Made by a program: the position numbers and the translations under genes. A DNA stretch of 64,000 bases from Minisyncoccota bacterium. GTDB lineage: Bacteria; Patescibacteriota; Microgenomatia; UBA1400; PJMF01. The first letter of the stretch is position 1. Every line of letters starts with the position of its first letter. The stretch lies in NCBI GenBank assembly GCA_009885085.1, contig VFLK01000033.1, positions 7,135-71,134 on the forward strand. Direction: 5' to 3'. This document shows, one piece after another, positions 1,915-40,495 of the stretch. A model generated the notes under the pieces. The model saw only the letters and a program-made list of their open reading frames with translations, was not told the origin of the DNA and searched no databases.

Positions 1915-3127
1915 ATCTATTACACCAAAGATTGCCCTCGTTTACGATAGAGTTAACACTTCTTATGGAGGAGCTGAGCACGTTCTCAAAGCAATTGGAG
2001 AAATTTTCCCAGAGGCTCCGCTTTTCACTTCAGTCCATTCAAAGGAAATCGCCACCTGGGCAAATAAATTCAAAATATACGCAAGCTTTTTGCAAAAAAT
2101 TAAGTTTTTTAGGAAAAGACATCAATTATTAGCATCCTTAATGCCAACGGCATTTGAATCACTGAAACTTGATGATTATGACATTGTCATTTCAATTTCC
2201 AGTGCCGAAGCCAAAGGTGTTTTAACGAAACCCAATCAACTCCATATTTGCTACATGCTCACGCCAACAAGATATATTCATTCTCACAGAAAAAAATATT
2301 TATCATCTAAAAAAATTTTGCGTTGGCCGATAGTAAACCAACTAGCTAACACAATGCTTAATTATTTAAAATGGTGGGACAAGGCAGCAGTTTATAGACC
2401 AGACATGATCATTCCGATTTCAAATTTAATCAAAAATAGAATTAAAGAATTTTATGCAATCGATTCGGAAGCTGTGATTTATCCTCCCGCTAACGTTGCC
2501 CCAAGAAAAGCTACTCTAAAAACCGCCCACCCAAAAAAAATCGATTTTCCTTTCTACCTTAGCATTTCTAGATTGGTTGACTATAAAAGAGTCGATTTAA
2601 GCATTAAACCAGCTCTCAAACTTGATAAAAACTTGGTTGTTGTAGGAACTGGAGTTCAGGAAAATGAGCTAAAAGAGATTGCTCAAAACCAGTGGACTGA
2701 AAAACTAACTGGAGAAACGATTGATGCATTATTAAAAAGAGCAAAAAAACAAAAAACAAAAATTATCTTTACCAAAGATTTGTCTGAATTAGACGTAAAT
2801 TTTCTATTAACAAACTGTAAAGCAGTAATTATGCCGGGAGAAGAGGATTTTGGAATAACTGGACTTGAGGCAAGTATTTTTGGCAAACCTGTGATAGTAT
2901 TTTATATTAGTGGTGTTTCTGAGCTGCTTGAAAATGGGATTGATTCTATTTTTATTAAGGAAGAAACAGAAGCAGAGGTGATAAGAGCAATAAATAAATT
3001 GGAAAGCACAAACTTTAATACTCGTCTCATCTTATCAAAAGCAAAATATCACAGCGTAGAGAAATTTAAGAAACAATTTGAAAAAAAAGTACTTGATAGT
3101 TGGAAACACTTTAATTTAAACAGCTGA
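1901..3127 (+). CDS. glycosyltransferase family 1 (GT4-type), second copy
   Basis: IALVYDRVNTSYGGAEHV N-terminus and EEDFGITGLEASIFGKPVI motif; GTG start overlaps the upstream gene. Confidence 0.7.
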   Translation: MTLNKSITPKIALVYDRVNTSYGGAEHVLKAIGEIFPEAPLFTSVHSKEIATWANKFKIYASFLQKIKFFRKRHQLLASLMPTAFESLKLDDYDIVISISSAEAKGVLTKPNQLHICYMLTPTRYIHSHRKKYLSSKKILRWPIVNQLANTMLNYLKWWDKAAVYRPDMIIPISNLIKNRIKEFYAIDSEAVIYPPANVAPRKATLKTAHPKKIDFPFYLSISRLVDYKRVDLSIKPALKLDKNLVVVGTGVQENELKEIAQNQWTEKLTGETIDALLKRAKKQKTKIIFTKDLSELDVNFLLTNCKAVIMPGEEDFGITGLEASIFGKPVIVFYISGVSELLENGIDSIFIKEETEAEVIRAINKLESTNFNTRLILSKAKYHSVEKFKKQFEKKVLDSWKHFNLNS

Positions 3128-7566: not shown

Positions 7567-7639
7567 TTGAATATAAAAACCTGACACAAGGTGAATCGCT
7601 CTAGCGAGAGAAGGTAGCCTGGGCTATAATAACTTTCAT

Positions 7640-9070
7640 ATGCCTGAAGAAAACAATAAATTGAAATCACAACCAACACTTGAAGAAATTGTAAGTCTAT
7701 CTAAAAGACGCGGATTTGTATTCCAAACATCAGCAATTTATGGTGGACTTGCCAATTCATATGACTACGGGCCACTTGGAGTAGAACTTCTTAGAAATAT
7801 TAAAAACGAGTGGTGGCGAGAATTTATCAACAAACGAGCAGACATGGTGGGAATTGATTCCCAAATCTTGCTTCATCCAAAAACTTGGGTTGCTTCGGGA
7901 CATGTAGGTTCCTTTAGTGATCCTTTAGTCGATGATGTAGTTACCAAAAAACGCTACCGAGCCGATCATTTAATTGAAGAATGGGTTGAACGACAACTCA
8001 AAAAAGGGAAAGAGGAATGGAACGGATTTGTTGTTGAAAATTTAAGTCTTGAAGAAATGGCAAAATTTATTAGTGACAATCAAATCTTGAGTCCTGACGG
8101 AAATAAAATTACTGAACCAAAATCTTTCAATCTTCTTTTTGAAACTGAGATTGGCACCATTGCCGGCGAAAAAACAATCATTTATTTGCGTGGAGAAACC
8201 GCCCAAGGAATATTCACAAATTTTAGTCAAGTTTTAGATTCTACTAGAGTTCAACTACCTTTCGGCATTGGTCAGATAGGGAAAAGCTTTAGAAATGAAA
8301 TTACCACCGGGCAATTTATCTTTAGAACGCTCGAGCTTGAGCAAGCAGAAATTGAATACTTTTTTAATCCAAATAATCAAGATTGGCATGAACTCATGGA
8401 AACTTGGAAACAGCAAATGATGAGTTTTGCAGTAAATACACTGGGTATAAAAACTGAGAATTTAAGATGGCGAAGGCATTCAGATAGCGAAAGAAGTTTT
8501 TATAGCAAAGACACCTATGATTTAGATTACAACTTCTCATTTGGTTGGAAAGAACTTTGGGGAGTTGCCTACAGAACTGACTATGATTTGAAACAACACA
8601 TGGAATTTTCAGGTCAATCACTCGAATATAGAGATCCATTCTCTGGCGAAGTTTTTGTACCACACGTTATGGAACCGGCACTCGGTATTGGCAGAGCTCT
8701 CTTGATGGTATTAACCGATGCTTATTACAAGGATGAAGAAAAAAATCGTATAGTTCTAAAACTTAAGCCATCTTTGGCTCCATATAAAGCCGCAATTTTT
8801 CCATTAGTTAAAAATAAACCAGAAATTGTTTCCCAAGCTCAAGAATTATTTAATTTGCTTGGTCAGAAGTTCTCCTGTACTTGGGATGCAAGAGGAAATA
8901 TTGGCAAAAGATACTTAACTCAAGATGAAATTGGTACTCCATTCTGTATCACAGTTGATTATCAAACTTTAGAAGACAAAACAGTGACTATTAGAGATAG
9001 AGATACTACCGAACAGACTAGAATGCCAATTGAGAAACTTGAAAGCTATATTGAATCCATGATAAAGTAA
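7640..9070 (+). CDS. glyQS: glycyl-tRNA synthetase (class II, dimeric GlyQS type)
   Basis: RRGFVFQTSAIYGGLANSYDYGPLGVELLRNIKNEWW N-terminus is diagnostic of GlyRS. Confidence 0.85.
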   Translation: MPEENNKLKSQPTLEEIVSLSKRRGFVFQTSAIYGGLANSYDYGPLGVELLRNIKNEWWREFINKRADMVGIDSQILLHPKTWVASGHVGSFSDPLVDDVVTKKRYRADHLIEEWVERQLKKGKEEWNGFVVENLSLEEMAKFISDNQILSPDGNKITEPKSFNLLFETEIGTIAGEKTIIYLRGETAQGIFTNFSQVLDSTRVQLPFGIGQIGKSFRNEITTGQFIFRTLELEQAEIEYFFNPNNQDWHELMETWKQQMMSFAVNTLGIKTENLRWRRHSDSERSFYSKDTYDLDYNFSFGWKELWGVAYRTDYDLKQHMEFSGQSLEYRDPFSGEVFVPHVMEPALGIGRALLMVLTDAYYKDEEKNRIVLKLKPSLAPYKAAIFPLVKNKPEIVSQAQELFNLLGQKFSCTWDARGNIGKRYLTQDEIGTPFCITVDYQTLEDKTVTIRDRDTTEQTRMPIEKLESYIESMIK

Positions 9071-10814: not shown

Positions 10815-11082
10815 AATGTGCGTAAGTATACCTCAAGGATAGAACTTTAACCACTAAAAATATACAGAAATTCGCACAATGATCCTACTTGCTGGACATT
10901 AGTAACTGTGATAATTTAATGAAGCTGTGGAATGTAGTGAAAATCTACAACTGTGCCGCAACGGTGTATTTTGATATTTTTCAAAATAAGTCCGATCTTC
11001 AGCAAATATTTTATTGACGAGCATCAAAATTGTGATTATTTATTTAGCCTTTGTACTAATAAAATAAACACCCGAAAAAATG

Positions 11083-11108: not shown

Positions 11109-11195
11109 CTTCAGTAATCTAGCGGCACAGAATTTCCAGAAGCAAAAGCAATTGAACAGATTGCCTGTAAAAATATATTCTTGGAAAGGAATAGT

Positions 11196-11915
11196 ATGCT
11201 AGAAAAAACTGAATCACTCGATATGTATCACCAGTTTAATGGAGAAAATCCGCTAGGATCTTTCAAAATTGAAGATGTTCTTCAAATAACTGGATTAAAT
11301 ACTTTTCTTGATGAAATGAATGCTTTATTTAAAGAATCAAGTCCTTTTCTCAATCAAGTGTCCCTTTTGTTTACTCACTATAGAAGACAGCTTGCATCCT
11401 TGCGTATTGAGATGCTAAATAATTTAGCCGCAAAACAATTACTTCAAGATTTTGGAGTAGCGGGCATTGGAATAGATGATAAGGGAAATGCTGACTCTCT
11501 GATCACTCAACAAATATTATCAGTCCATGGTAAATTAGTTGTTAATTTAGAAACAACTTCCATAGAACTTCCAAGTTCTGTGGCTAAATTCACCACGTTC
11601 ATTGTCGCTGTTCAAAAAGAAATAATTCGGATTTTAGTAGATTCACAAAAATCTATTTCTGCTGAAATAGAAGCAAAAGAAACTGAAGAAACAAAAGTAG
11701 ATAATCATCTATCTAGTCATACAAATACACACCATCGTTTGGCATCTGAATCGATCCAAGTTTCAAGACAAGCTCAAGAAAAAAGAAAAAAAGCAACACA
11801 TATTGAAAAAGAAAGTGCACACAATCAATTAAAAACTTTATTTTCTTATCTAAAAAACATCTTTAATCCAGTTGCTATGGGAACTCGAGAATTCATGTCA
11901 ATGACTGCGCAATAG
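11196..11915 (+). CDS. hypothetical protein
   Basis: ORF 11181..11915; the second ATG at 11196 has a GGAAAGGA Shine-Dalgarno-like sequence; no family recognised. Confidence 0.45.
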   Translation: MLEKTESLDMYHQFNGENPLGSFKIEDVLQITGLNTFLDEMNALFKESSPFLNQVSLLFTHYRRQLASLRIEMLNNLAAKQLLQDFGVAGIGIDDKGNADSLITQQILSVHGKLVVNLETTSIELPSSVAKFTTFIVAVQKEIIRILVDSQKSISAEIEAKETEETKVDNHLSSHTNTHHRLASESIQVSRQAQEKRKKATHIEKESAHNQLKTLFSYLKNIFNPVAMGTREFMSMTAQ

Positions 11916-32615: not shown

Positions 32616-34739
32616 ATGATTTACGAACCTGATGGCTCATTATCTAACCTAACACTTCCAAGAGATGAAGTGTTAATTGCAATCTATGAAAAACAGAATG
32701 AAGCTTTATTCCTAATTCTTGGAGCTGACAAACCACCAATATTCACTAAAGAATTTGCCGCCAAAGAGTTAGCAATTCAACCACAAGAAACTCCAGGATT
32801 ACTAAAAAGAATTTGGTTTGAAAAGGATGAAAAAAATAAGACGTATAAATTGTGCGGTGTAGGGAAGTGGGGAGGTCAAAATTCAAAACTTGCAGAAATA
32901 TCTATAAATCTTGATATGGAAGAAGCAAATCGACTAATGAGTCTAGCTTCTAATAATAGAATTGAAGAGATAAACTCCTTATCAAATAATTCTGAATTAG
33001 CAAAAACCCCAAAAATTGAAAATTACAGAAAAATGCTAGAAGAAGCTGAAAAAATATTTTTTGCAATGCTAACAGATTATTCTGGAAAAATTGTAGTTGA
33101 TGAAACTGAAAGTGAAAAAAGTAAAAAAAGCTCTGAAGTAAAAAAGGATACGGCGCCTTTAGACACAATTGATGTTCAAATCATGCCAACTGAGAAAACT
33201 GATAAAAAAGATCTACTAAACAAATTAGCTGAAACTATGGAGCTTCGGGTGTTATTTTTAAATAGAAATAACAACGAAATTTCTTACGCTGATATATCCG
33301 AAGTTATAAAATTATTAGTAAATCCAGAAAATGTTGAAAAATATTTTAATAATTTAGGAATTGGCTCAGATGTCATTAGTGAAAAGGAACATTTTGAAAA
33401 TGAACTAAAAAAAATGACGAATGAGTATGCCAGCGGAAAAGTTAAAAACTTGCAAACAATTTTGGAAACAAGAAAACAAAATCAGCTCCAAACAATTTCG
33501 CAGATGATTAATACAATTGTTGAACAAATACCAATGCTTGCTAAAAGTCCAAAAACTTTTGACATTATAAAAAATGCTATGGATCTTGATAATGACTTAG
33601 CCGAGCAACTTGTCAAAGAATATAACGAAACTTCCACAATATCATTTGAAACTGTTTTCGATAATCTCGAAGGTGCAACTGAGTTATTTGAAGCAAAAGT
33701 ATTAGAAATAATTCTAGCAGATTATGAGGATCAAATTAATTCGCTAAAAATTGAATTTAATAAAATAATAGCTTCGCAGACAATCTCAAGGTGTATTGAG
33801 TGGGCCCAACCTCCTTTTTCTACTCCAGTTGATTCAAATATTCAACTCAACGTAGATCCTACTTTATTAGATCAAGCAATTAAATTTTCGTTTAGTCCAG
33901 AAAAGTGGGATATTAATTTAGTTACTTATGCACTAAATAACACTAGACATTCAGATGGCGAAATTGGAAGTAAAATACCAGGCAATAATATTTCAGGACT
34001 ACGAAAAACTAGAGAGAAATTAGATGACTATTTAAAACAGATGGTTGAAAAAAGTAATACGGAAAGTTTTGGTGCTCAATTTAAAGCCTGGATGAAAAAA
34101 TACAGCGATGGAAATATTAACCCAGATTATTACTTATTAAGTTTTACCTCGGTTTTAAAAACACCTTGGAAAAAACTTGAAGAAGAAATCTGGAAAAAAA
34201 CAATGGCCGAGTGGTTAAAATCAAATAAAGAAAAACTAAAAGCCATTGTTACTAACGAACTTAGTAAAAAAGGTGGCGCAATAGATGAAATCAAAAGTCA
34301 TGATAAAGCGATAGCAAAATCAACTGAAATATGGTTTAAATGGCGTCATGAATTGAAAAAAATATTACAAGAAAAATCACTAAATGCTCAAACGGATGTT
34401 GATATTCTAGTTGACTGGTCGCTAAAACAACAATACCCTGACGATAGAATGAAAACAAAAACAAATGAAGTTGCAATTGATTGGGATAAGGACAAAGAAC
34501 TGATAGAAAAACTTAAAGTTGATCATCTAAGAATTTGGAATATAATTTTTCACACCAGAAATATTGCCAAAAGTCTCAACTTAGGTATAGACACAAATGT
34601 TGTTCAATGGCTAAAAAGAATTTCTTTTCAAGCAAAAATGAGCAATCATTATGGATCAGATACTTTTCTCACAAGCGAAGGTGTGGAGTGGAGAGAAAAT
34701 ATTGAGGCCAAAGCCAAAGAAACAACTTCACAAAAATGA
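32616..34739 (+). CDS. large hypothetical protein (707 aa), K/E-rich and probably mostly alpha-helical, no TM or P-loop
   Basis: starts 2 nt after the upstream stop; stop overlaps the next start (ATGA). Confidence 0.6.
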   Translation: MIYEPDGSLSNLTLPRDEVLIAIYEKQNEALFLILGADKPPIFTKEFAAKELAIQPQETPGLLKRIWFEKDEKNKTYKLCGVGKWGGQNSKLAEISINLDMEEANRLMSLASNNRIEEINSLSNNSELAKTPKIENYRKMLEEAEKIFFAMLTDYSGKIVVDETESEKSKKSSEVKKDTAPLDTIDVQIMPTEKTDKKDLLNKLAETMELRVLFLNRNNNEISYADISEVIKLLVNPENVEKYFNNLGIGSDVISEKEHFENELKKMTNEYASGKVKNLQTILETRKQNQLQTISQMINTIVEQIPMLAKSPKTFDIIKNAMDLDNDLAEQLVKEYNETSTISFETVFDNLEGATELFEAKVLEIILADYEDQINSLKIEFNKIIASQTISRCIEWAQPPFSTPVDSNIQLNVDPTLLDQAIKFSFSPEKWDINLVTYALNNTRHSDGEIGSKIPGNNISGLRKTREKLDDYLKQMVEKSNTESFGAQFKAWMKKYSDGNINPDYYLLSFTSVLKTPWKKLEEEIWKKTMAEWLKSNKEKLKAIVTNELSKKGGAIDEIKSHDKAIAKSTEIWFKWRHELKKILQEKSLNAQTDVDILVDWSLKQQYPDDRMKTKTNEVAIDWDKDKELIEKLKVDHLRIWNIIFHTRNIAKSLNLGIDTNVVQWLKRISFQAKMSNHYGSDTFLTSEGVEWRENIEAKAKETTSQK

Positions 34740-37207
34740 TAAGTCGAGAAACAAGCAAACCACAATCCCGCAACGATTTTCTATCGATTCCTGGTCTTGA
34801 TGAAAGAGCACAAGCAACAATTTTTGCCAAAGAAATAGAATTATTGCCTCCAAGAATGCGAAATTATATTGCTATTTTGATGCGAGAAAATAGCAGAGCT
34901 GGCATATTTAAAAAAAGACAATCTGAAGAAAATCTTACAGCACTACTTGAGCCAGCTAGAGAACTGATTAGTTTGTTACATATAACTGAAAATATGCCAG
35001 AGGTTGTGGAAAACCTCCATATCAGGTGGGCAAAAATTATTGAAACTCAACCATATAATGAAAAAACAAGACGAAGAGATATAAGAGAAATATGGTTAGA
35101 TATAATTGAAAAAGGTGTTAAAACCGCGCAAACAACATTTATCTGCAGAGAAATTAGAGACCGAATGATCTCCAGAAGCTATCTCGATAAACCCAGTCAG
35201 GCAATTTCCAAATTTGATACAGAAATACTAAATAAATTAGCTGCCTGGTGCTATGAAGCCCAAGGAGATAAATATAAAGTTGAAAATGGTTACCAGCTAT
35301 TTAAAGAAGATTTGGGAAAAATACTAGAAATTTCACAAGATACTGGCATATCGGCAGAAAATTATTTTAATCACAGAGACAAATCCATAATGCCATGGTT
35401 TTTTATGCTGTTGGTTGGTGATAATTCTGAATTTAGTAAATTCATGTATGAAAAAATAGGCAATAAAGAATCAATGAGACCACACATAAACCTTGGAGTG
35501 ACAGGTATTGATATAGCATTAGGCGAGAATGGACTTGAAGAAAGACCAGACGATCTTTACAAACGTCTTGCTGATCTTTTATATCCTGACGGCTATCCAG
35601 AAGGAATTAAAGGAAAAATTAAAAATTCAGAACAAAGAAGTATTTTTATTGAGAAAGGCAGCGAACTTAAGTGTAAAGTAGCAGACCCAGGTTCAGACTC
35701 ATATGAAAGAGCTTATATCAAAAAGGAAATTGAAATCCTAAAAACTGATTTCCAAGATGATGGCATAGAAATGCACGACAATTTTGGCTATGAAAAACCA
35801 GCTCTTTTTATGTCCTTAGATATTAATTTAATGTCTGATCTCATGGGAATAACTGGTAGCTGGACCAAGTGGCTTGAAGCAATGGCCCATATTAGAGAAC
35901 AAGAAACAACTTGCAACATACCAATTTCTCCAGATGAAGCATTAACTTTGATGAACTGGGATTTAGAGTCTGATTTAAAAAATAAAATCCTCACAAAAGC
36001 AATGCTGATTGCTCATTTCAATAGAGCTGCTGGCTTAGAACAACATCACGGCTATGGAGGAAATAAAAATATTTATAATGATCAATTTTGGGCTAGACTA
36101 GCTTACAATTTATCATTGCCAGAAAATAAAGATGGAGCTCACACTTTGACTCCAGAAATATTAGCTAAAATTTCAGAATCTTCTCAGGACGAAGAAGAAA
36201 TGGCGCAAAAACTTGGATTCTTACTCTCTGGCAGAGTTACTACAATTAATCTCAGTGTGATGGGTGCAAATAGAACTGGAAAAGATGAACAAGCAAGTAC
36301 GATGGAAAGTTCTTCGTATGCAGTCACAGAATCTTGCAGAGCTTATGGCCTTTATGAGCAAGGAAAAGATCCTAAGCCAACAGTTGCTTCTGGACATTCC
36401 ATGGGTGCTCAAATTTTAGAAAGAGCTTTGTTACTTTTGCCTCAAAGTGTAAGAAATTGGGTTGACTTTCTTTCCGTAACTGGAGTCTATACAAGTGAAA
36501 TGAGTGCAATGTCTTTTCTTAAAAAAGGAATGAATAAACTTCACCCATTATTAATTAAACTTGTAACAAATAAGAACATTACTAAACAACAGTTGGGGAA
36601 ATTTATGTCAGGCGCTGGAGAAATCTTACCAATTAAAAAAATAATACTAAAAGGCGCCACCTATTCTCAAGCCAGAACACCAATGGATTTCAAGATTGGA
36701 TTACCAATTGCAGCGGCGCATGAAATAAGTTTGAATTCAGCTCCAGAATATTTATTAGGACAAATGGGAGCAATTGATAACAGCAAAGATAGACATTCAT
36801 TTGATGAACTTGCGTCAACAATATCTACATTTGGTAAAGACATGGTAACAAGAACGGTTGGACGAATTGATTCTGTCCTACATCCTGGAAAATCAATGAG
36901 GGCTCTAAAAAATTCAGACAAAAATATTAGAATAAAAGATTTTGATAAAATGACTATTCCTGAAATGGTTAAGTGGGTAAATGAGACTGAAGTGAATACT
37001 GGTGAACCAATTGAAGTTATCCTGGCTAAAGTTCCACACTACATACAAACGACTGAACTAGGTAGATGGTTGATTAGATTGCAACACATGAAAAAACTAA
37101 AATTACATACTTATGGATATAGAAAAAAAGGTGAAAATTCAGAAGCAACTCAAAATATCAGCAATACAACAAGATCAATTACCGAATTATTTATGGGGAG
37201 AAATTAA
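34736..37207 (+). CDS. large hypothetical protein (823 aa) with a GHSMG (GxSxG nucleophile-elbow-like) motif; candidate serine hydrolase or acyltransferase domain
   Basis: ATGA overlap with the upstream gene; GHSMG encoded at 36392..36406 in frame. Confidence 0.55.
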   Translation: MISRETSKPQSRNDFLSIPGLDERAQATIFAKEIELLPPRMRNYIAILMRENSRAGIFKKRQSEENLTALLEPARELISLLHITENMPEVVENLHIRWAKIIETQPYNEKTRRRDIREIWLDIIEKGVKTAQTTFICREIRDRMISRSYLDKPSQAISKFDTEILNKLAAWCYEAQGDKYKVENGYQLFKEDLGKILEISQDTGISAENYFNHRDKSIMPWFFMLLVGDNSEFSKFMYEKIGNKESMRPHINLGVTGIDIALGENGLEERPDDLYKRLADLLYPDGYPEGIKGKIKNSEQRSIFIEKGSELKCKVADPGSDSYERAYIKKEIEILKTDFQDDGIEMHDNFGYEKPALFMSLDINLMSDLMGITGSWTKWLEAMAHIREQETTCNIPISPDEALTLMNWDLESDLKNKILTKAMLIAHFNRAAGLEQHHGYGGNKNIYNDQFWARLAYNLSLPENKDGAHTLTPEILAKISESSQDEEEMAQKLGFLLSGRVTTINLSVMGANRTGKDEQASTMESSSYAVTESCRAYGLYEQGKDPKPTVASGHSMGAQILERALLLLPQSVRNWVDFLSVTGVYTSEMSAMSFLKKGMNKLHPLLIKLVTNKNITKQQLGKFMSGAGEILPIKKIILKGATYSQARTPMDFKIGLPIAAAHEISLNSAPEYLLGQMGAIDNSKDRHSFDELASTISTFGKDMVTRTVGRIDSVLHPGKSMRALKNSDKNIRIKDFDKMTIPEMVKWVNETEVNTGEPIEVILAKVPHYIQTTELGRWLIRLQHMKKLKLHTYGYRKKGENSEATQNISNTTRSITELFMGRN

Positions 37208-37225
37208 GAGTTAATTATCTATTTG

Positions 37226-37234
37226 TGATATAAT
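37226..37234 (+). promoter_or_regulatory. extended -10 promoter element TGaTATAAT for the ileS leader
   Basis: read directly; TSS would fall near 37241. Confidence 0.4.
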
Positions 37235-37240
37235 ATTCCA

Positions 37241-37575
37241 AAATCCGCTTGAGTTCTGCCACATAATGTGGATATCACAGAACAAGGTGAGGGAAGAACA
37301 TTTTGATGTTTTGTTAATTAGCTCAAAAAAAAGCCTGATAACAAAACAAAAAATAACTAGATCTCTCCGGGTAAGCCCGTAATTGCTGCAAACAAGAGAT
37401 TTGGTTTTTAAATCGCAACTTTTTATGCCCAAAGCATAATAAATTGCATTTCTTCCAAATAAATAGAGGTGGTACCGCCACACTCAACATAAAGTTGAAT
37501 TGAAGGCCCTCTTATAACTAGTTTAAATCGTGCGTCGTGCGTATGAAATGAGCTAGTTATAAGTGGGCTTTTTTG
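37241..37575 (+). ncRNA. T-box riboswitch leader of ileS
   Basis: AUC specifier followed by A at 37274..37277; T-box consensus match AAAUAGAGGUGGUACCGCC at 37461..37479; antiterminator pairing AGAGG/CCUCU and GCC/GGC; 15-bp terminator stem 37507..37521 / 37553..37567 followed by CTTTTTT, overlapping the antiterminator 3' strand. Confidence 0.7.
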
Positions 37576-37597
37576 TAGCAAGAATAACAAAGGAAAC

Positions 37598-40495
37598 ATG
37601 CCTAAACTAAAAGAAATGCCTCTCAGACCAAATTTAGCTGAACTCGAAGAATCAGTTCTTGAATATTGGCAAAAAAATAAATCTTTCGAAAAATCTGTCG
37701 AAATGAGAGATAAAAGTAAGTCCTATGTTTTTTATGATGGACCTCCATTTGCCACTGGTTTGCCACATTATGGTCATCTGCTTGGCAGTACTTCCAAAGA
37801 CGTGGTGCCTAGATACTGGACCATGAAGGGCTATCGAGTTGAGAGAGTCTGGGGCTGGGATTGTCACGGTCTTCCAATCGAGAACATGATAGAGAAACAA
37901 CTGGATATCAAAGGCGGTAAAAAGGGGATTGAAGCTCTTGGAATCGATAAATTTAATCAGGCATGTCATACCGAGGTTTTACGTTTAGATGGTGCATGGA
38001 AAACGATCATCGATCGCCTGGGTCGTTGGGTCGATTTTGAAAATAATTATAAAACCATGGACACAACCTACATGGAATCAGTTTGGTGGGGTTTTAAACA
38101 ATTAGTTGATAAAGATTTAGTTTATCAAGGCAAAAAAATTGTGATGTACTGTCCACGTTGCTCGACACCATTGTCAAACTTCGAGATCGCCATGGACAAC
38201 TCATACGAAGATGTAGAGGATTTTTCAGTCTATATTAAATTTAAAATAGTAGAAAAAGACCTGACTTCAAAAAATAGCAATGAATATCTCATAGCCTGGA
38301 CCACAACACCTTGGACTCTTCCAGGAAATGTCGGTTTAGCAGTCAATTCAAAAGCAGATTATGTTCAGGTTGAATACGTTTCACAGGAAACAAAAGAAAC
38401 CGAACTACTTTGGGTAGCCAAAGATTTAGTTGAAAAAGTTTTTGAAAACAAAGAATACACCGTTCAAAAAACCGTTAAAGGCAGTGAATTAGTAGGCAAA
38501 CACTATCAACCACTTTTTGATTACATAAATTCAGATACAGACGGCGCAAAAAATAAACCAAATGCCTGGTCAGTTTTAGATGCTAATTTTGTCAGTATGG
38601 AAGATGGTACTGGAATCGTTCACACCGCGGCAATTTTTGGAGAAGATGACTATGCTCTGGCTCTCGAAAAAGATTTGCCATTAATTCCAACTCTTAGTGA
38701 TGAAGGAAAATTCTTACCTTTTGTAGAAATAGTTGCTGGTAAATTTTACAAAAGTGCAGAAAAACCAATCAACGCAGATCTAACCAAACGTGGGCTCATG
38801 TTTAAAGAAGGTAAAATTACTCACTCATATCCATTCTGTTATCGTTGCTCAACACCACTTTATTACAATGCAGTTCCAGCCTGGTATATCAATGTTCAAA
38901 AACTAAAAAATGAGTTACTTAAGCAAAATGAAAAAATGAATTGGTACCCTGAGTATCTGAAGGAAGGCCGTTTTGGTAAAGGCCTGGAAACTGCACCGGA
39001 TTGGAATATTTCCAGATCTAGGTATTGGGGTACTCCTATGCCAGTCTGGATTTCTAATGATGAGCTAAAAGGAGAAACCAAAGTCGGTGGCTATAAAAAA
39101 CTTAGAGTTATCGAATCAGTAGCAGAACTAAAAAAATGGGCAGTCGATCCAAAGCAAGTGGAAAATTTAACCGATCTTCATCGAGAATTTTTAGATAATT
39201 TAGAAGTTTGGATTGATGATGACAAAACAATTAAGGGAAGTAGAATACCTGAGGTTTTTGACTGTTGGGTTGAGTCAGGTTCAATGCCGTTTGCTTCAAA
39301 ACATTATCCATTTGAAAATAAAGAAGAGTTTGAAAGTACATATCCCGCTCAATTCGTCAGTGAATATATTGCCCAAACCAGAGCTTGGTTCTATACCATG
39401 CACGTTATCTCAGTTGGAATTTTTGGTAAAAATGCAGTTGAAAATACATTGACGACTGGGACCATTTTGGCAGAAGACGGCAATAAAATGAGTAAGTCAA
39501 AGAAAAACTACCCAGATCCAATGCTACTGATAAATGAGTATGGAGTTGATAGTTTAAGACTTTATCTCATGAGTTCAACTGTGATGAAATCTGAAAACTT
39601 GAATTTTAGCGAACGAGAAGTATCTGATATTCGTAAAAAAGTTTTCTTGATCTGGTGGAATATGTTTGCTTTCTACAAGTTATACGCAAAAAAAGACTCT
39701 AAAGTTTCTTTAACCGAAGTTCCAACCTCTGATGATGTGATGGACAAATGGGTCTTGAGCAGACTCAATACCTTAATTAAAGATGTGACTGAGTATATGG
39801 ATGACTACAATCTCATCAAAGCAAGTCGAGAACTAATGAATTTTGTAGATGAATTGTCTACCTGGTATCTTAGAAGAAGTCGAGATCGCTTGCGTAACTC
39901 TTCAAGCCCATCTTTAACTGTGTTCGGATATGTTTTAGTCAAGCTATCACAATTATTTGCTCCAATAACTCCATTTTTTAGTGAAACTATGTGGCACAAT
40001 TTAGTTGATGACAAAACCAGTGTGCATCATACAGATTGGCCAATTGTTGATGAAAATTTAATTCATAAAACACTTGAAGACAAAATGGATAATGTAAGAA
40101 AAGTAGTTGAAAAAACTCTTTCACTTAGAAGTGAGGCAGGAATCAAGGTTCGTCAACCATTAGCAAAAATTACATGTTTCGTGACCGGAGACTCACCTAA
40201 AGAAAATTTGTTGGAAGTTCTTGCTGACGAAGTTAATGTCAAAAAAGTAGAGTGGAAAAGAACAACTGAAACTTTGCGAGTAATTCTAGATACAGATCTT
40301 ACTGACGAATTAAAATCCGAAGGTGATGCAAGAGAACTGATGAGAAATATTCAAAAATTAAGAAAAAAAGCTGGCCTTCAAGTAAATGACGCTATAACTG
40401 TAGAAGTTCCAGAGTGGCCAAAGAAATGGGAAACTGAAATTGAAAAAAAGACAGGATCCAAACTTGTCAAAGGAAATGAGCTGAAAATAGTTTAG
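37598..40495 (+). CDS. ileS: isoleucyl-tRNA synthetase
   Basis: PPFATGLPHYGHLLG (HIGH) ... WDCHGLPIE and KMSKS (GNKMSKSKKN) motifs, 965 aa. Confidence 0.9.
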   Translation: MPKLKEMPLRPNLAELEESVLEYWQKNKSFEKSVEMRDKSKSYVFYDGPPFATGLPHYGHLLGSTSKDVVPRYWTMKGYRVERVWGWDCHGLPIENMIEKQLDIKGGKKGIEALGIDKFNQACHTEVLRLDGAWKTIIDRLGRWVDFENNYKTMDTTYMESVWWGFKQLVDKDLVYQGKKIVMYCPRCSTPLSNFEIAMDNSYEDVEDFSVYIKFKIVEKDLTSKNSNEYLIAWTTTPWTLPGNVGLAVNSKADYVQVEYVSQETKETELLWVAKDLVEKVFENKEYTVQKTVKGSELVGKHYQPLFDYINSDTDGAKNKPNAWSVLDANFVSMEDGTGIVHTAAIFGEDDYALALEKDLPLIPTLSDEGKFLPFVEIVAGKFYKSAEKPINADLTKRGLMFKEGKITHSYPFCYRCSTPLYYNAVPAWYINVQKLKNELLKQNEKMNWYPEYLKEGRFGKGLETAPDWNISRSRYWGTPMPVWISNDELKGETKVGGYKKLRVIESVAELKKWAVDPKQVENLTDLHREFLDNLEVWIDDDKTIKGSRIPEVFDCWVESGSMPFASKHYPFENKEEFESTYPAQFVSEYIAQTRAWFYTMHVISVGIFGKNAVENTLTTGTILAEDGNKMSKSKKNYPDPMLLINEYGVDSLRLYLMSSTVMKSENLNFSEREVSDIRKKVFLIWWNMFAFYKLYAKKDSKVSLTEVPTSDDVMDKWVLSRLNTLIKDVTEYMDDYNLIKASRELMNFVDELSTWYLRRSRDRLRNSSSPSLTVFGYVLVKLSQLFAPITPFFSETMWHNLVDDKTSVHHTDWPIVDENLIHKTLEDKMDNVRKVVEKTLSLRSEAGIKVRQPLAKITCFVTGDSPKENLLEVLADEVNVKKVEWKRTTETLRVILDTDLTDELKSEGDARELMRNIQKLRKKAGLQVNDAITVEVPEWPKKWETEIEKKTGSKLVKGNELKIV

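What the first reader, a model, noticed from the sequence alone, without database searches (positions are those of the whole stretch)
37241..37575. Complete T-box riboswitch controlling ileS
The sequence shows an extended -10 (TGaTATAAT), a Stem-I-like region with the AUC Ile codon followed by A (37274..37277), a T-box consensus (AAAUAGAGGUGGUACCGCC versus AAUUAGGGUGGNACCGCG) with the UGGU bulge that pairs with tRNA NCCA, an antiterminator (AGAGG/CCUCU, GCC/GGC), and a mutually exclusive 15-bp terminator with a U-tract 24 nt before the ileS ATG. T-boxes are the hallmark aaRS control in Firmicutes and relatives. Its presence in this reduced genome indicates retained tRNA-charging-responsive attenuation, while glyQS here has only a 70-nt leader with no T-box.
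Basis: partly seen in the sequence, partly recalled or inferred. Interest (0 to 1): 0.5.

Follow-up and report, generated by a model that had tools for sequence, protein, structure and literature searches.

The report
Short-stem T-box riboswitch before ileS
The leader of the isoleucyl-tRNA synthetase gene in this candidate-phyla-radiation bacterium is a real tRNA-sensing T-box riboswitch, but an unusual one: it has a short tRNA-decoding arm of the kind known from actinobacterial translational T-boxes, yet it ends in a transcription terminator, and the standard Rfam model does not detect it.

Summary
Rfam RF00230 gives only 24 bits against a gathering score of 93, and it mis-aligns Stem I.

The support comes from comparison. 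The organism is a Patescibacteria (CPR) member of the Microgenomates/Pacebacteria group. 53 of 81 sources (the window plus 80 related ileS loci) carry one homologous leader upstream of ileS. A covariance model built without the window or its close relatives hits the window at 45.6 bits (E about 1e-11). On a sequence-only alignment 89% of cells are paired, against 68% in shuffles, and 23 of 26 pairs change on both sides.

The architecture is not the canonical long Stem I. The window has a 6-bp lower helix, the specifier AUAUCA in a side bulge, and a 5-bp apical hairpin, with no room for the elbow-binding platform. A Stem II S-turn and Stem IIA/B follow. This matches published Class IV; most relatives match Class III. 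Those classes are described as mostly translational, but here the platform is a roughly 30-bp terminator plus U6 that leaves the SD free, and 41 of 50 relatives are built the same way.

The tRNA-Ile partner could not be checked. I rate it a new variant of a known kind.

The parts
37226..37234 (+). Extended -10 promoter element TGaTATAAT. The inferred transcription start is near 37241, 3-4 nt before the first paired base of the leader.
   Evidence: Read. TGnTAnnnT lies 10-40 nt upstream of the leader in 34 of 50 homologous leaders, against 7.5% of random 63-nt windows. The simple -35/-10 scan found no -35 match here.
37245..37287 (+). Stem I domain. The K-turn-like base has C-stem C37245-C37246 / G37286-G37287, a bulge GCUU, and G37251 A37252 opposite A37284 A37285. 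The lower helix is 37253-37258 / 37278-37283. The apical mini-hairpin is 37259-37271 (CCACA-UAA-UGUGG).
   Evidence: The MFE fold reproduces the helices and leaves AUAUCA unpaired. The apical helix covaries among the six close relatives: CCACA/UGUGG, CCAAUUU/AAAUUGG, CCAAC/GUUGG, UCAGCC/GGCUGA. The K-turn C-stem and Stem I covary across 53 leaders (81% and 91% paired, every pair with changes on both sides).
37272..37277 (+). Specifier side bulge AUAUCA: Ile codon AUC (37274-37276) followed by the conserved purine A37277.
   Evidence: AUC is invariant in alignment A1. It sits in an NNAUCA apical loop of a 5-8 bp hairpin in about 40 of 51 relatives, and AUC ranks first of all 64 triplets in that test. 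It sits in the same side bulge in all six window-type leaders.
37289..37367 (+). Stem II. The base helix is 37289-37293 / 37363-37367. The S-turn strands are AAGAAC 37294-37299 and AACUAGAU 37355-37362. The distal helices are 37300-37304 / 37350-37354 and 37308-37316 / 37339-37347.
   Evidence: The base helix is 98% paired, and all 5 pairs change on both sides in both the 20 and the 53 sequences. AGAA and UAGA are invariant.
37368..37388 (+). Stem IIA (C37368-G37370 / C37377-G37379, loop GUAAGC) plus the downstream UAAUUGCUG. G37375 C37376 with G37385 C37386 is a candidate Stem IIB pseudoknot.
   Evidence: It aligns to the IIA/B part of the Rfam T-box consensus. IIA is 100% paired in 51 sequences, and the loop GC and downstream GC are invariant. 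The pseudoknot cannot be tested by covariation because both sides are invariant.
37399..37460 (+). Stem III, enlarged. The outer helix is 37399-37404 / 37455-37460 and the inner helices are 37415-37418 / 37444-37447 and 37424-37428 / 37434-37438.
   Evidence: The outer helix is 100% paired in the relatives that have it, with two pairs changed on both sides. Rfam aligns it as Stem III with a 43-nt insertion. Many compact relatives lack it.
37461..37512 (+). T-box sequence and antiterminator. A1 is 37465-69 / 37508-12, the bulge UGGUACC is 37470-76, A2 is 37477-79 / 37505-07, and an inserted hairpin UCAAC/GUUGA lies at 37484-37498.
   Evidence: It is the unconstrained MFE of 37461-37513 (-11.3 kcal/mol). 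GGUGG-ACC is invariant. A1 and A2 are 93% paired, and A2 shows GC/AU/UA/CG exchanges at every position.
37506..37574 (+). Intrinsic terminator. The hairpin 37506-37568 has a 5' strand that reuses the 3' strands of A2 and A1. The U-tract is 37569-37574.
   Evidence: Energy -38.9 kcal/mol, z = -9.2. The terminator state of the 3' domain is -50.3 kcal/mol, against -34.4 with the antiterminator enforced. Three pairs show compensatory changes against L003/L004/L006. 41 of 50 homologous leaders have an equivalent hairpin plus U-tract that overlaps the antiterminator.
37590..37594 (+). SD-like AAGGA. It lies outside and downstream of the terminator hairpin.
   Evidence: Read. It is 16 nt beyond the U-tract, so the alternative hairpin does not sequester it.
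37598..40495 (+). ileS, the regulated gene: a type-2 (eukaryote-like) isoleucyl-tRNA synthetase of 965 aa.
   Evidence: TIGR00392 at 843.8 bits. Pfam tRNA-synt_1, Anticodon_1 and DUF5915. 726 bits to cytoplasmic IleRS against 282 bits to S. aureus 1FFY.

Best explanation
Window 37241-37575 is the 5' leader of ileS and works as a tRNA-Ile-sensing T-box riboswitch that controls transcription read-through. Transcription starts just after the extended -10 at 37226-37234. The decoding module then folds. It consists of a K-turn-like base, a short Stem I that presents AUC-A in a side bulge between two helices, a Stem II with a purine-rich S-turn, and the Stem IIA/B element. By analogy with the solved actinobacterial ileS T-boxes, Stem I and the Stem II S-turn together clamp the anticodon GAU of tRNA-Ile without touching the tRNA elbow. 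If the bound tRNA is uncharged, its 3' NCCA end pairs with UGGU in the 7-nt bulge (37470-37473) and stabilises the weak antiterminator (about -11 kcal/mol). RNA polymerase then reads through into ileS. If the tRNA is charged or absent, the roughly 30-bp terminator forms. It reuses the 3' strands of the antiterminator, is about 16 kcal/mol more stable, and is followed by U6, so transcription stops 23 nt before the start codon. Shown here: all the sequence elements, the mutually exclusive folds, their conservation and covariation in 53 leaders, exclusive placement upstream of ileS, and the SD lying outside the hairpin. Inferred: tRNA binding itself, the elbow-independent binding mode, and termination in vivo.
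For: The elements were read directly. The RF00230 local hit aligns Stem IIA, Stem III, the T-box and the antiterminator well. There is one homologous leader per locus in 53 of 81 sources, always on the ileS strand and upstream of it. Model R1, built without the window and its five closest relatives, scores the window at 45.6 bits, E = 1.3e-11, and finds nothing else in the 64 kb. On the MAFFT-only alignment 89.3% of cells are paired against 67.6% in shuffles and 30-52% in slid controls, and 23 of 26 pairs change on both sides. On 53 sequences the figures are 92.9% and 24 of 26. AUC is invariant and always loop-presented. Both the antiterminator and the terminator conformations are supported in the subclade. 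41 of 50 leaders have a terminator plus U-tract. The promoter is conserved. The downstream gene is IleRS. The architecture matches the published Class IV description (PMC10482949).
Against: RF00230 does not reach its gathering score (24 bits against 93). No tRNA-Ile gene could be examined, so neither the anticodon nor the discriminator match is verified. The literature states that transcriptional T-boxes generally need the elbow-binding platform for fast tRNA capture (PMC7583486), and this leader lacks it. The K-turn is imperfect in the window, with A.A in place of A.G and only a 2-bp C-stem. The Stem IIB pseudoknot is unproven. The whole-leader MFE pairs the Stem II 5' strand differently from the comparative model. 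No experiment of any kind bears on it.
Confidence: 0.85

Rival explanations
1. It is a translational T-box, like the actinobacterial Class III/IV ileS leaders. On this reading the alternative hairpin acts mainly by blocking ribosome access rather than by terminating transcription.
For: The Stem I type, the enlarged Stem III and the insertion in helix A2 are all features that the review links to translational T-boxes (PMC7583486; PMC10482949). One relative, L019, has no U-tract and its hairpin covers AGAGGA 8 nt before the AUG. In a few relatives the U-tract abuts the AUG.
Against: In the window the hairpin ends at 37568 and is followed by U6. The SD-like AAGGA (37590-94) and the AUG (37598) lie 16-24 nt beyond it and are not paired in either fold. 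41 of 50 relatives have hairpin-plus-U-tract platforms, often 20-70 nt or more from the start codon. In L003 and L004 the start of ileS is more than 400 nt away.
Confidence: 0.07
2. It is a canonical Class I T-box, complete with a long Stem I and elbow-binding platform, as the reader's wording 'complete T-box' implies.
For: The 3' half matches the RF00230 consensus. Stem II with an S-turn and Stem IIA/B are also Class I features.
Against: Only 12 nt separate the -10 box from the leader's first helix, and the upstream ORF ends at 37207, so there is no room for a long Stem I. Stem I spans 31 nt and its apical part is a 5-bp helix with a UAA triloop. RF00230 scores 24 bits and mis-assigns Stem I. 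None of 16 relatives reaches the gathering score.
Confidence: 0.03
3. It is a decayed or non-switching relic. The hairpin would simply be the terminator of the upstream operon, or a constitutive attenuator, and the T-box-like motifs would no longer bind tRNA.
For: The genome is reduced. The K-turn is imperfect. Rfam scores it low. No tRNA partner was verified.
Against: All functional nucleotides are invariant across relatives with as little as about 50% IleRS identity: AUC-A, the AGAA/UAGA S-turn, GGUGGNACC and the CC that pairs with GG. All six helices are maintained by compensatory changes, which indicates purifying selection on the switch. A conserved promoter sits between the upstream gene and the leader.
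Confidence: 0.04
4. The region encodes the 90-aa minus-strand ORF at 37211-37483, and the apparent RNA structure is incidental.
For: the ORF listing reports a 90-aa GTG ORF on the minus strand.
Against: The closest relatives differ from the window by indels that are not multiples of three. Their longest stop-free minus-strand stretches are only 58-79 aa and do not span the region. The substitution pattern is that of paired RNA columns.
Confidence: 0.01

Closest known systems
Class IV T-box (Actinomyces odontolyticus ileS type; classification in PMC10482949, after Sherwood et al. 2015)
   Same: It regulates ileS and carries the specifier AUC. Stem I is of intermediate length with no elbow-binding double-T-loop platform. 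[quoted passage not shown] A Stem II with an S-turn and Stem IIA/B follow.
   Different: The actinobacterial members are described as mostly translational, acting through an SD sequestrator. The window has an intrinsic terminator with U6 and a free SD. The host is Patescibacteria, not Actinobacteria. I could not align it to an actinobacterial sequence because none was available to the tools.
Class III T-box (Nocardia farcinica and Mycobacterium tuberculosis ileS; PDB 6UFM and 6UFG as cited in PMC7583486)
   Same: [quoted passage not shown] The spacing from codon to S-turn in L034 (U19 to A41) is the same as the U17 to A39 spacing reported for N. farcinica. The window shares everything except the loop topology.
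   Different: The window has a 13-nt hairpin inserted at the 5' side of the loop, which turns the apical loop into a side bulge. The expression platform is a terminator rather than a sequestrator. Many relatives lack Stem III altogether.
Class I T-box (Bacillus subtilis tyrS type; Rfam RF00230)
   Same: It has a T-box sequence with the UGGN bulge, antiterminator/terminator competition, transcriptional control, a K-turn, a Stem II S-turn and Stem IIA/B.
   Different: It has no long Stem I, no AG bulge and no distal loop platform. It scores 24 bits against RF00230's gathering score of 93.

Membership tests
T-box leader (general; RF00230) | A specifier codon for the amino acid of the regulated gene, followed by a purine and displayed unpaired in Stem I | tested here: met
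   AUC-A at 37274-37277 lies in an unpaired 6-nt bulge upstream of ileS. It is invariant in the relatives and always loop-presented.
T-box leader (general; RF00230) | A conserved T-box sequence that forms an antiterminator with a 7-nt bulge UGGNACC | tested here: met
   AGAGG-UGGUACC-GCC...GGC-CCUCU at 37465-37512. It is the MFE of the truncated leader. A1 and A2 covary.
T-box leader (general; RF00230) | A mutually exclusive, more stable terminator or sequestrator that shares the antiterminator's 3' strand | tested here: met
   The terminator 37506-37568 reuses 37505-37512. Energies are -50.3 against -34.4 kcal/mol, with z = -9.2. 41 of 50 relatives are the same.
T-box leader (general; RF00230) | Reaches the Rfam RF00230 gathering score | tested here: not met
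   There is no hit at the gathering score. The permissive local scan gives 24 bits against 93. None of 16 relatives passes either. The model expects a long Stem I.
T-box leader (general; RF00230) | A K-turn (GA motif) at the base of Stem I | tested here: inconclusive
   The window has GA opposite AA, with a 2-bp C-stem and a 4-nt bulge. Relatives mostly have GA/GA with a 3-bp C-stem that covaries (UGC/GCA, AGC/GCU, GCC/GGC, ACC/GGU). The three-dimensional kink cannot be shown from sequence.
T-box leader (general; RF00230) | A cognate tRNA with a matching anticodon (GAU) and a discriminator base that pairs with the N of UGGN (A73 for UGGU) | not testable with these tools
   No tRNA-Ile gene lies in the window or in the 80 loci. 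Look-ups meant to extend the contig found nothing.
T-box leader (general; RF00230) | Read-through that depends on uncharged tRNA | not testable with these tools
   This needs in vitro transcription or in vivo reporters.
Class I/II T-box | A long Stem I with a distal interdigitated double T-loop platform that stacks on the tRNA elbow | tested here: not met
   Stem I is 37253-37283 (31 nt), and its distal part is a 5-bp helix with a UAA triloop. The promoter sits 12 nt upstream, which leaves no room for more.
Class IV T-box (PMC10482949) | [quoted passage not shown] | tested here: met
   Lower helix 37253-58 / 37278-83, upper helix 37259-63 / 37267-71, and the bulge AUAUCA 37272-77 on the 3' side only. 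The upper helix covaries in six relatives.
Class III/IV T-box (PMC10482949) | A Stem II domain with an S-turn, followed by the Stem IIA/B pseudoknot | tested here: met
   The Stem II base helix is 98% paired with all pairs covarying. AGAA and UAGA are invariant. IIA is 100% paired. The IIB pairing itself is inconclusive because the GC/GC positions are invariant.
Class III/IV T-box (PMC10482949) | Regulation of translation initiation by SD sequestration (stated as 'mostly', so not strictly defining) | tested here: not met
   The hairpin is followed by U6, and the SD and AUG lie outside it.
Class III T-box (PMC10482949) | The Specifier in a penta- or hexanucleotide apical loop of a short Stem I | tested here: not met
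   This is not met in the window, which has a side bulge plus an apical hairpin. It is met in about 40 of 51 relatives.

The most novel reading that the evidence does not exclude
Patescibacteria (CPR) ileS leaders form a large, so far unannotated lineage of platform-less (Class III/IV-type) T-boxes that act through intrinsic transcription terminators. If so, fast co-transcriptional capture of tRNA does not need the Stem I elbow contact, contrary to the current kinetic argument for why transcriptional T-boxes keep a long Stem I. It would also extend T-boxes to the CPR. From my own knowledge, that fits phylogenies that place CPR within Terrabacteria, next to the other T-box-bearing phyla.
Probability: 0.55. 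Interest if true: 0.65.

Novelty: new variant of a known kind. Interest (0 to 1): 0.5.

Why it matters
T-boxes are textbook riboswitches and antibiotic targets. Current reviews divide them into transcriptional ones, which need a long Stem I to grab the tRNA elbow quickly, and translational ones with a short Stem I, found mostly in Actinobacteria. This leader and about 50 relatives combine the short, elbow-independent decoding module with a transcription terminator. They do so in a superphylum where the searchable literature reports no T-box and where Rfam-based annotation does not detect them. That gives a natural test of whether the elbow contact is really required for kinetic control. It also gives compact (about 120-135 nt) natural transcriptional T-boxes for structural and engineering work. 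Finally, it shows that these very reduced, host-dependent bacteria still sense tRNA-Ile charging directly.

Tried and rejected
1. Rfam at the gathering score, on the window and on 16 relatives, gave no T-box hit. This shows a limit of the model rather than absence of the element.
2. I accepted the Rfam local alignment only for the 3' half. Its Stem I assignment, which would make AAA-G the specifier, is rejected because it actually lies on the Stem II 5' strand (one search compared).
3. The whole-leader MFE pairs GGGAAGA with the 3' strand of Stem III, not with UCUCUC. I rejected this in favour of the covariation-supported Stem II base.
4. The consensus terminator scan found nothing, because it allows loops of only 3-8 nt.
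5. I searched for tRNA-Ile in the window and in all 80 loci and found none. Extending the contig by exact-protein look-up returned nothing on record.
6. The Stem IIB pseudoknot cannot be tested by covariation, because the candidate GC/GC pairs are invariant and the flanking position does not covary.
7. I checked whether the terminator apex, which is identical in the window, L001 and L002, is a dispersed repeat. It occurs once in the window.
8. Literature searches for T-box together with Patescibacteria, CPR, Saccharibacteria or Microgenomates gave no papers. Sherwood 2015 and Vitreschak 2008 are not held, so statements about them come second-hand from PMC7583486 and PMC10482949.
9. I found no printed actinobacterial ileS T-box sequence to align against.
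10. The minus-strand 90-aa ORF was rejected.

Full report
**What is there.**
- Extended -10 TGaTATAAT at 37226-37234.
- AUC at 37274-37276, followed by A37277.
- AAAUAGAGGUGGUACCGCC at 37461-37479.
- An antiterminator: AGAGG 37465-69 / CCUCU 37508-12 and GCC 37477-79 / GGC 37505-07, around the 7-nt bulge UGGUACC.
- A hairpin 37506-37568 that reuses the antiterminator's 3' strands, followed by U6 (37569-37574), 23 nt before the ATG.

The downstream gene is isoleucyl-tRNA synthetase (TIGR00392, 844 bits) of the type-2, eukaryote-like kind.

**The proposed test fails, but for an informative reason.** Rfam RF00230 gives no hit at its gathering score. A permissive scan of 37100-37700 gives 24 bits against a threshold of 93, E = 0.0027. 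In that alignment the 3' half matches the consensus well (Stem IIA, Stem III with a 43-nt insertion, the T-box, the antiterminator). The model's long Stem I, however, is forced onto what turns out to be the 5' strand of Stem II.

**Organism and relatives.** The IleRS protein retrieved 80 loci from the species-level genome collection, all Patescibacteria/CPR. They are mostly Microgenomates-group (Pacebacteria, Gottesmanbacteria, Woesebacteria), at 50-88% identity. About 50 of them carry GGUGGNACC roughly 100-170 nt upstream of ileS.

**Stem I is short.**
- In about 40 of 51 leaders AUC lies in an NNAUCA apical loop of a 5-8 bp hairpin whose stem sequence varies freely. Among all 64 triplets AUC ranks first in this test.
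- In the window and its five closest relatives (L001-L004, L006), a 9-20-nt hairpin is inserted at the 5' side of that loop. The specifier (AUAUCA, 37272-37277) therefore becomes a side bulge between a 6-bp lower helix (37253-58 / 37278-83) and a 5-bp upper helix (37259-63 / 37267-71).
- The upper helix covaries: CCACA/UGUGG, CCAAUUU/AAAUUGG, CCAAC/GUUGG, UCAGCC/GGCUGA.
- The promoter lies only about 12 nt upstream of the first helix and is itself conserved (TGnTAnnnT in 34 of 50 leaders against a 7.5% background). There is no room for a long Stem I or an elbow-binding platform.

**The rest of the decoding module.**
- Stem I rests on a K-turn-like GA motif whose 3-bp closing stem covaries (UGC/GCA, AGC/GCU, GGC/GCC, GCC/GGC, ACC/GGU, AUC/GAU).
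- Stem II follows directly. Its 5-bp base helix (37289-93 / 37363-67) is 98% paired, with changes on both sides at every position.
- Invariant AGAA (5' strand) and UAGA (3' strand) form the S-turn region.
- The near-invariant CCGGGUAAGCCCGUAA-AGC element is Stem IIA plus the candidate IIB pairing.

**Formal tests.**
- On a MAFFT-only alignment of 20 compact relatives, which excludes the window's subclade, 89.3% of cells form standard pairs. Column shuffles give 67.6% and slid controls 30-52%. 23 of 26 pairs change on both sides.
- A covariance model built from that alignment (R1) hits the window at 37244-37434 with 45.6 bits, E = 1.3e-11, and hits the T-box/antiterminator at 37442-37512. The hit is split because the model has no Stem III. 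The next hit in the 64 kb is 9.6 bits, E = 0.28.
- R1 finds exactly one element in 53 of 81 sources, always upstream of ileS on its strand. On that alignment 92.9% of cells are paired and 24 of 26 pairs covary. This alignment is fitted to the model, so it leans towards the structure.

**The switch.**
- Folding 37461-37513 without constraints gives exactly the antiterminator (-11.3 kcal/mol).
- With the downstream sequence added, the terminator wins: -50.3 against -34.4 kcal/mol with the antiterminator enforced.
- The terminator hairpin is about 30 bp, -38.9 kcal/mol, z = -9.2, and shows three compensatory pairs against L003/L004/L006.
- The SD-like AAGGA (37590-94) and the AUG lie beyond the U-tract and are unpaired in both states. 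The platform is therefore a transcription terminator, not an SD sequestrator.
- 41 of 50 homologous leaders likewise have a stable hairpin that overlaps the antiterminator and ends at a U-tract. L019 is a likely translational exception.

**Comparison with what is known.**
- PMC10482949 defines four T-box classes. Class III (N. farcinica ileS) has a short Stem I without the platform and the Specifier in a 5-6-nt apical loop. [quoted passage not shown] Both need Stem II, and both "mostly regulate translation initiation".
- The window fits Class IV. Most relatives fit Class III.
- The review PMC7583486 states that transcriptional T-boxes generally require the long, platform-bearing Stem I for fast tRNA capture. 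It adds that translational ones often carry insertions in Stem III and helix A2.
- The window has both insertions (Stem III 37399-37460; A2 hairpin 37484-37498) and yet ends in a terminator.
- TBDB applied its short-Stem-I model only to Actinobacteria and to class I hits with a truncated Stem I (PMC7778990).
- Earlier surveys list T-boxes in Firmicutes, Actinobacteria, Chloroflexi, Deinococcus-Thermus and a few delta-proteobacteria (PMC2494555).
- No held paper links T-boxes to Patescibacteria/CPR. Absence from this library is not proof of absence from the literature.

**Limits.**
- No tRNA-Ile gene was available, so the anticodon and discriminator matches are inferred. From general knowledge, bacterial tRNA-Ile(GAU) has A73, which would pair with the U of UGGU.
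- The six-sequence subclade alignment represents only about two independent lineages.
- The K-turn and the pseudoknot are sequence-level inferences.
- No experiment bears on termination or tRNA response.

**Verdict.** This is a real T-box that is Ile-specific and most likely transcriptional, with a Class IV-type short Stem I, in a CPR bacterium. It is a new variant of a known kind, of moderate interest.

Noticed in passing
window 10911-11009 (+): An AdoCbl-II (cobalamin) riboswitch aptamer, RF01689, at 41.7 bits against a gathering score of 36.5. It lies upstream of a 244-aa ORF (11181-11915, TTG start) that has no Pfam hit. This is a second riboswitch in this small genome, controlling an unknown gene.
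   Followed up: partly
L028, L029, L038, L061 (UGGA); L021, L031, L054 (UGGC): The variable base of the T-box bulge UGGN differs among the relatives. That predicts tRNA-Ile discriminator bases U73 or G73 in those lineages in place of the usual A73. This gives a ready-made covariation test between the riboswitch and its tRNA.
   Followed up: no
L019 2953-3003: This relative has the same decoding module but no U-tract. The alternative hairpin CCUCUAUACUAAUAUUAGAGG covers AGAGGA 8 nt before the AUG. It is therefore probably a translational version within the same clade.
   Followed up: partly
L035 2795-2916, L028 2810-2932, L034 2796-2929 and others: Many relatives have very compact leaders (about 120-135 nt to the end of the antiterminator) with no Stem III hairpin at all between Stem IIA/B and the T-box sequence. 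Stem III is normally considered part of the discriminator domain.
   Followed up: partly
L003 1365-1761; L004 about 2598-3000: In two close relatives an ORF of about 130 aa lies between the T-box terminator and ileS. There the riboswitch would control a two-gene unit.
   Followed up: no
window 37512-37568; L001 1888-1944; L002 2876-2932: The terminator hairpin, including its 31-nt apical part, is 100% identical in three genomes whose IleRS proteins are only 85-88% identical and whose leaders otherwise diverge. It is not repeated elsewhere in the window. The reason for this extra conservation is unexplained.
   Followed up: partly
L028 2949-2958, L044 1289-1298, L047 2952-2961, L048 2983-2994: In several relatives the terminator U-tract runs directly into the AUG and no Shine-Dalgarno sequence is present.
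   Followed up: no
L005, L007, L048, L051 (between Stem I and Stem II): An extra hairpin is inserted between Stem I and the 3' strand of the K-turn closing stem. This makes a three-way junction at the base of Stem I.
   Followed up: no
window 32616-34739 and 34736-37207 (+): Two large overlapping ORFs (707 and 823 aa) directly upstream of the ileS leader have no Pfam or NCBIfam match.
   Followed up: partly
window 37598-40495: The IleRS is the type-2, eukaryote-like form (726 bits to cytoplasmic IleRS against 282 bits to S. aureus type 1). From my own knowledge, actinobacterial IleRS is also type 2. The short-Stem-I T-box may therefore travel with this enzyme type.
   Followed up: partly
window 7567-7639: GlyRS (7640-9070, dimeric type) has only a 73-nt upstream gap. 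Neither Rfam nor the clade model finds a T-box there. ileS is the only T-box-controlled gene in this 64 kb.
   Followed up: yes
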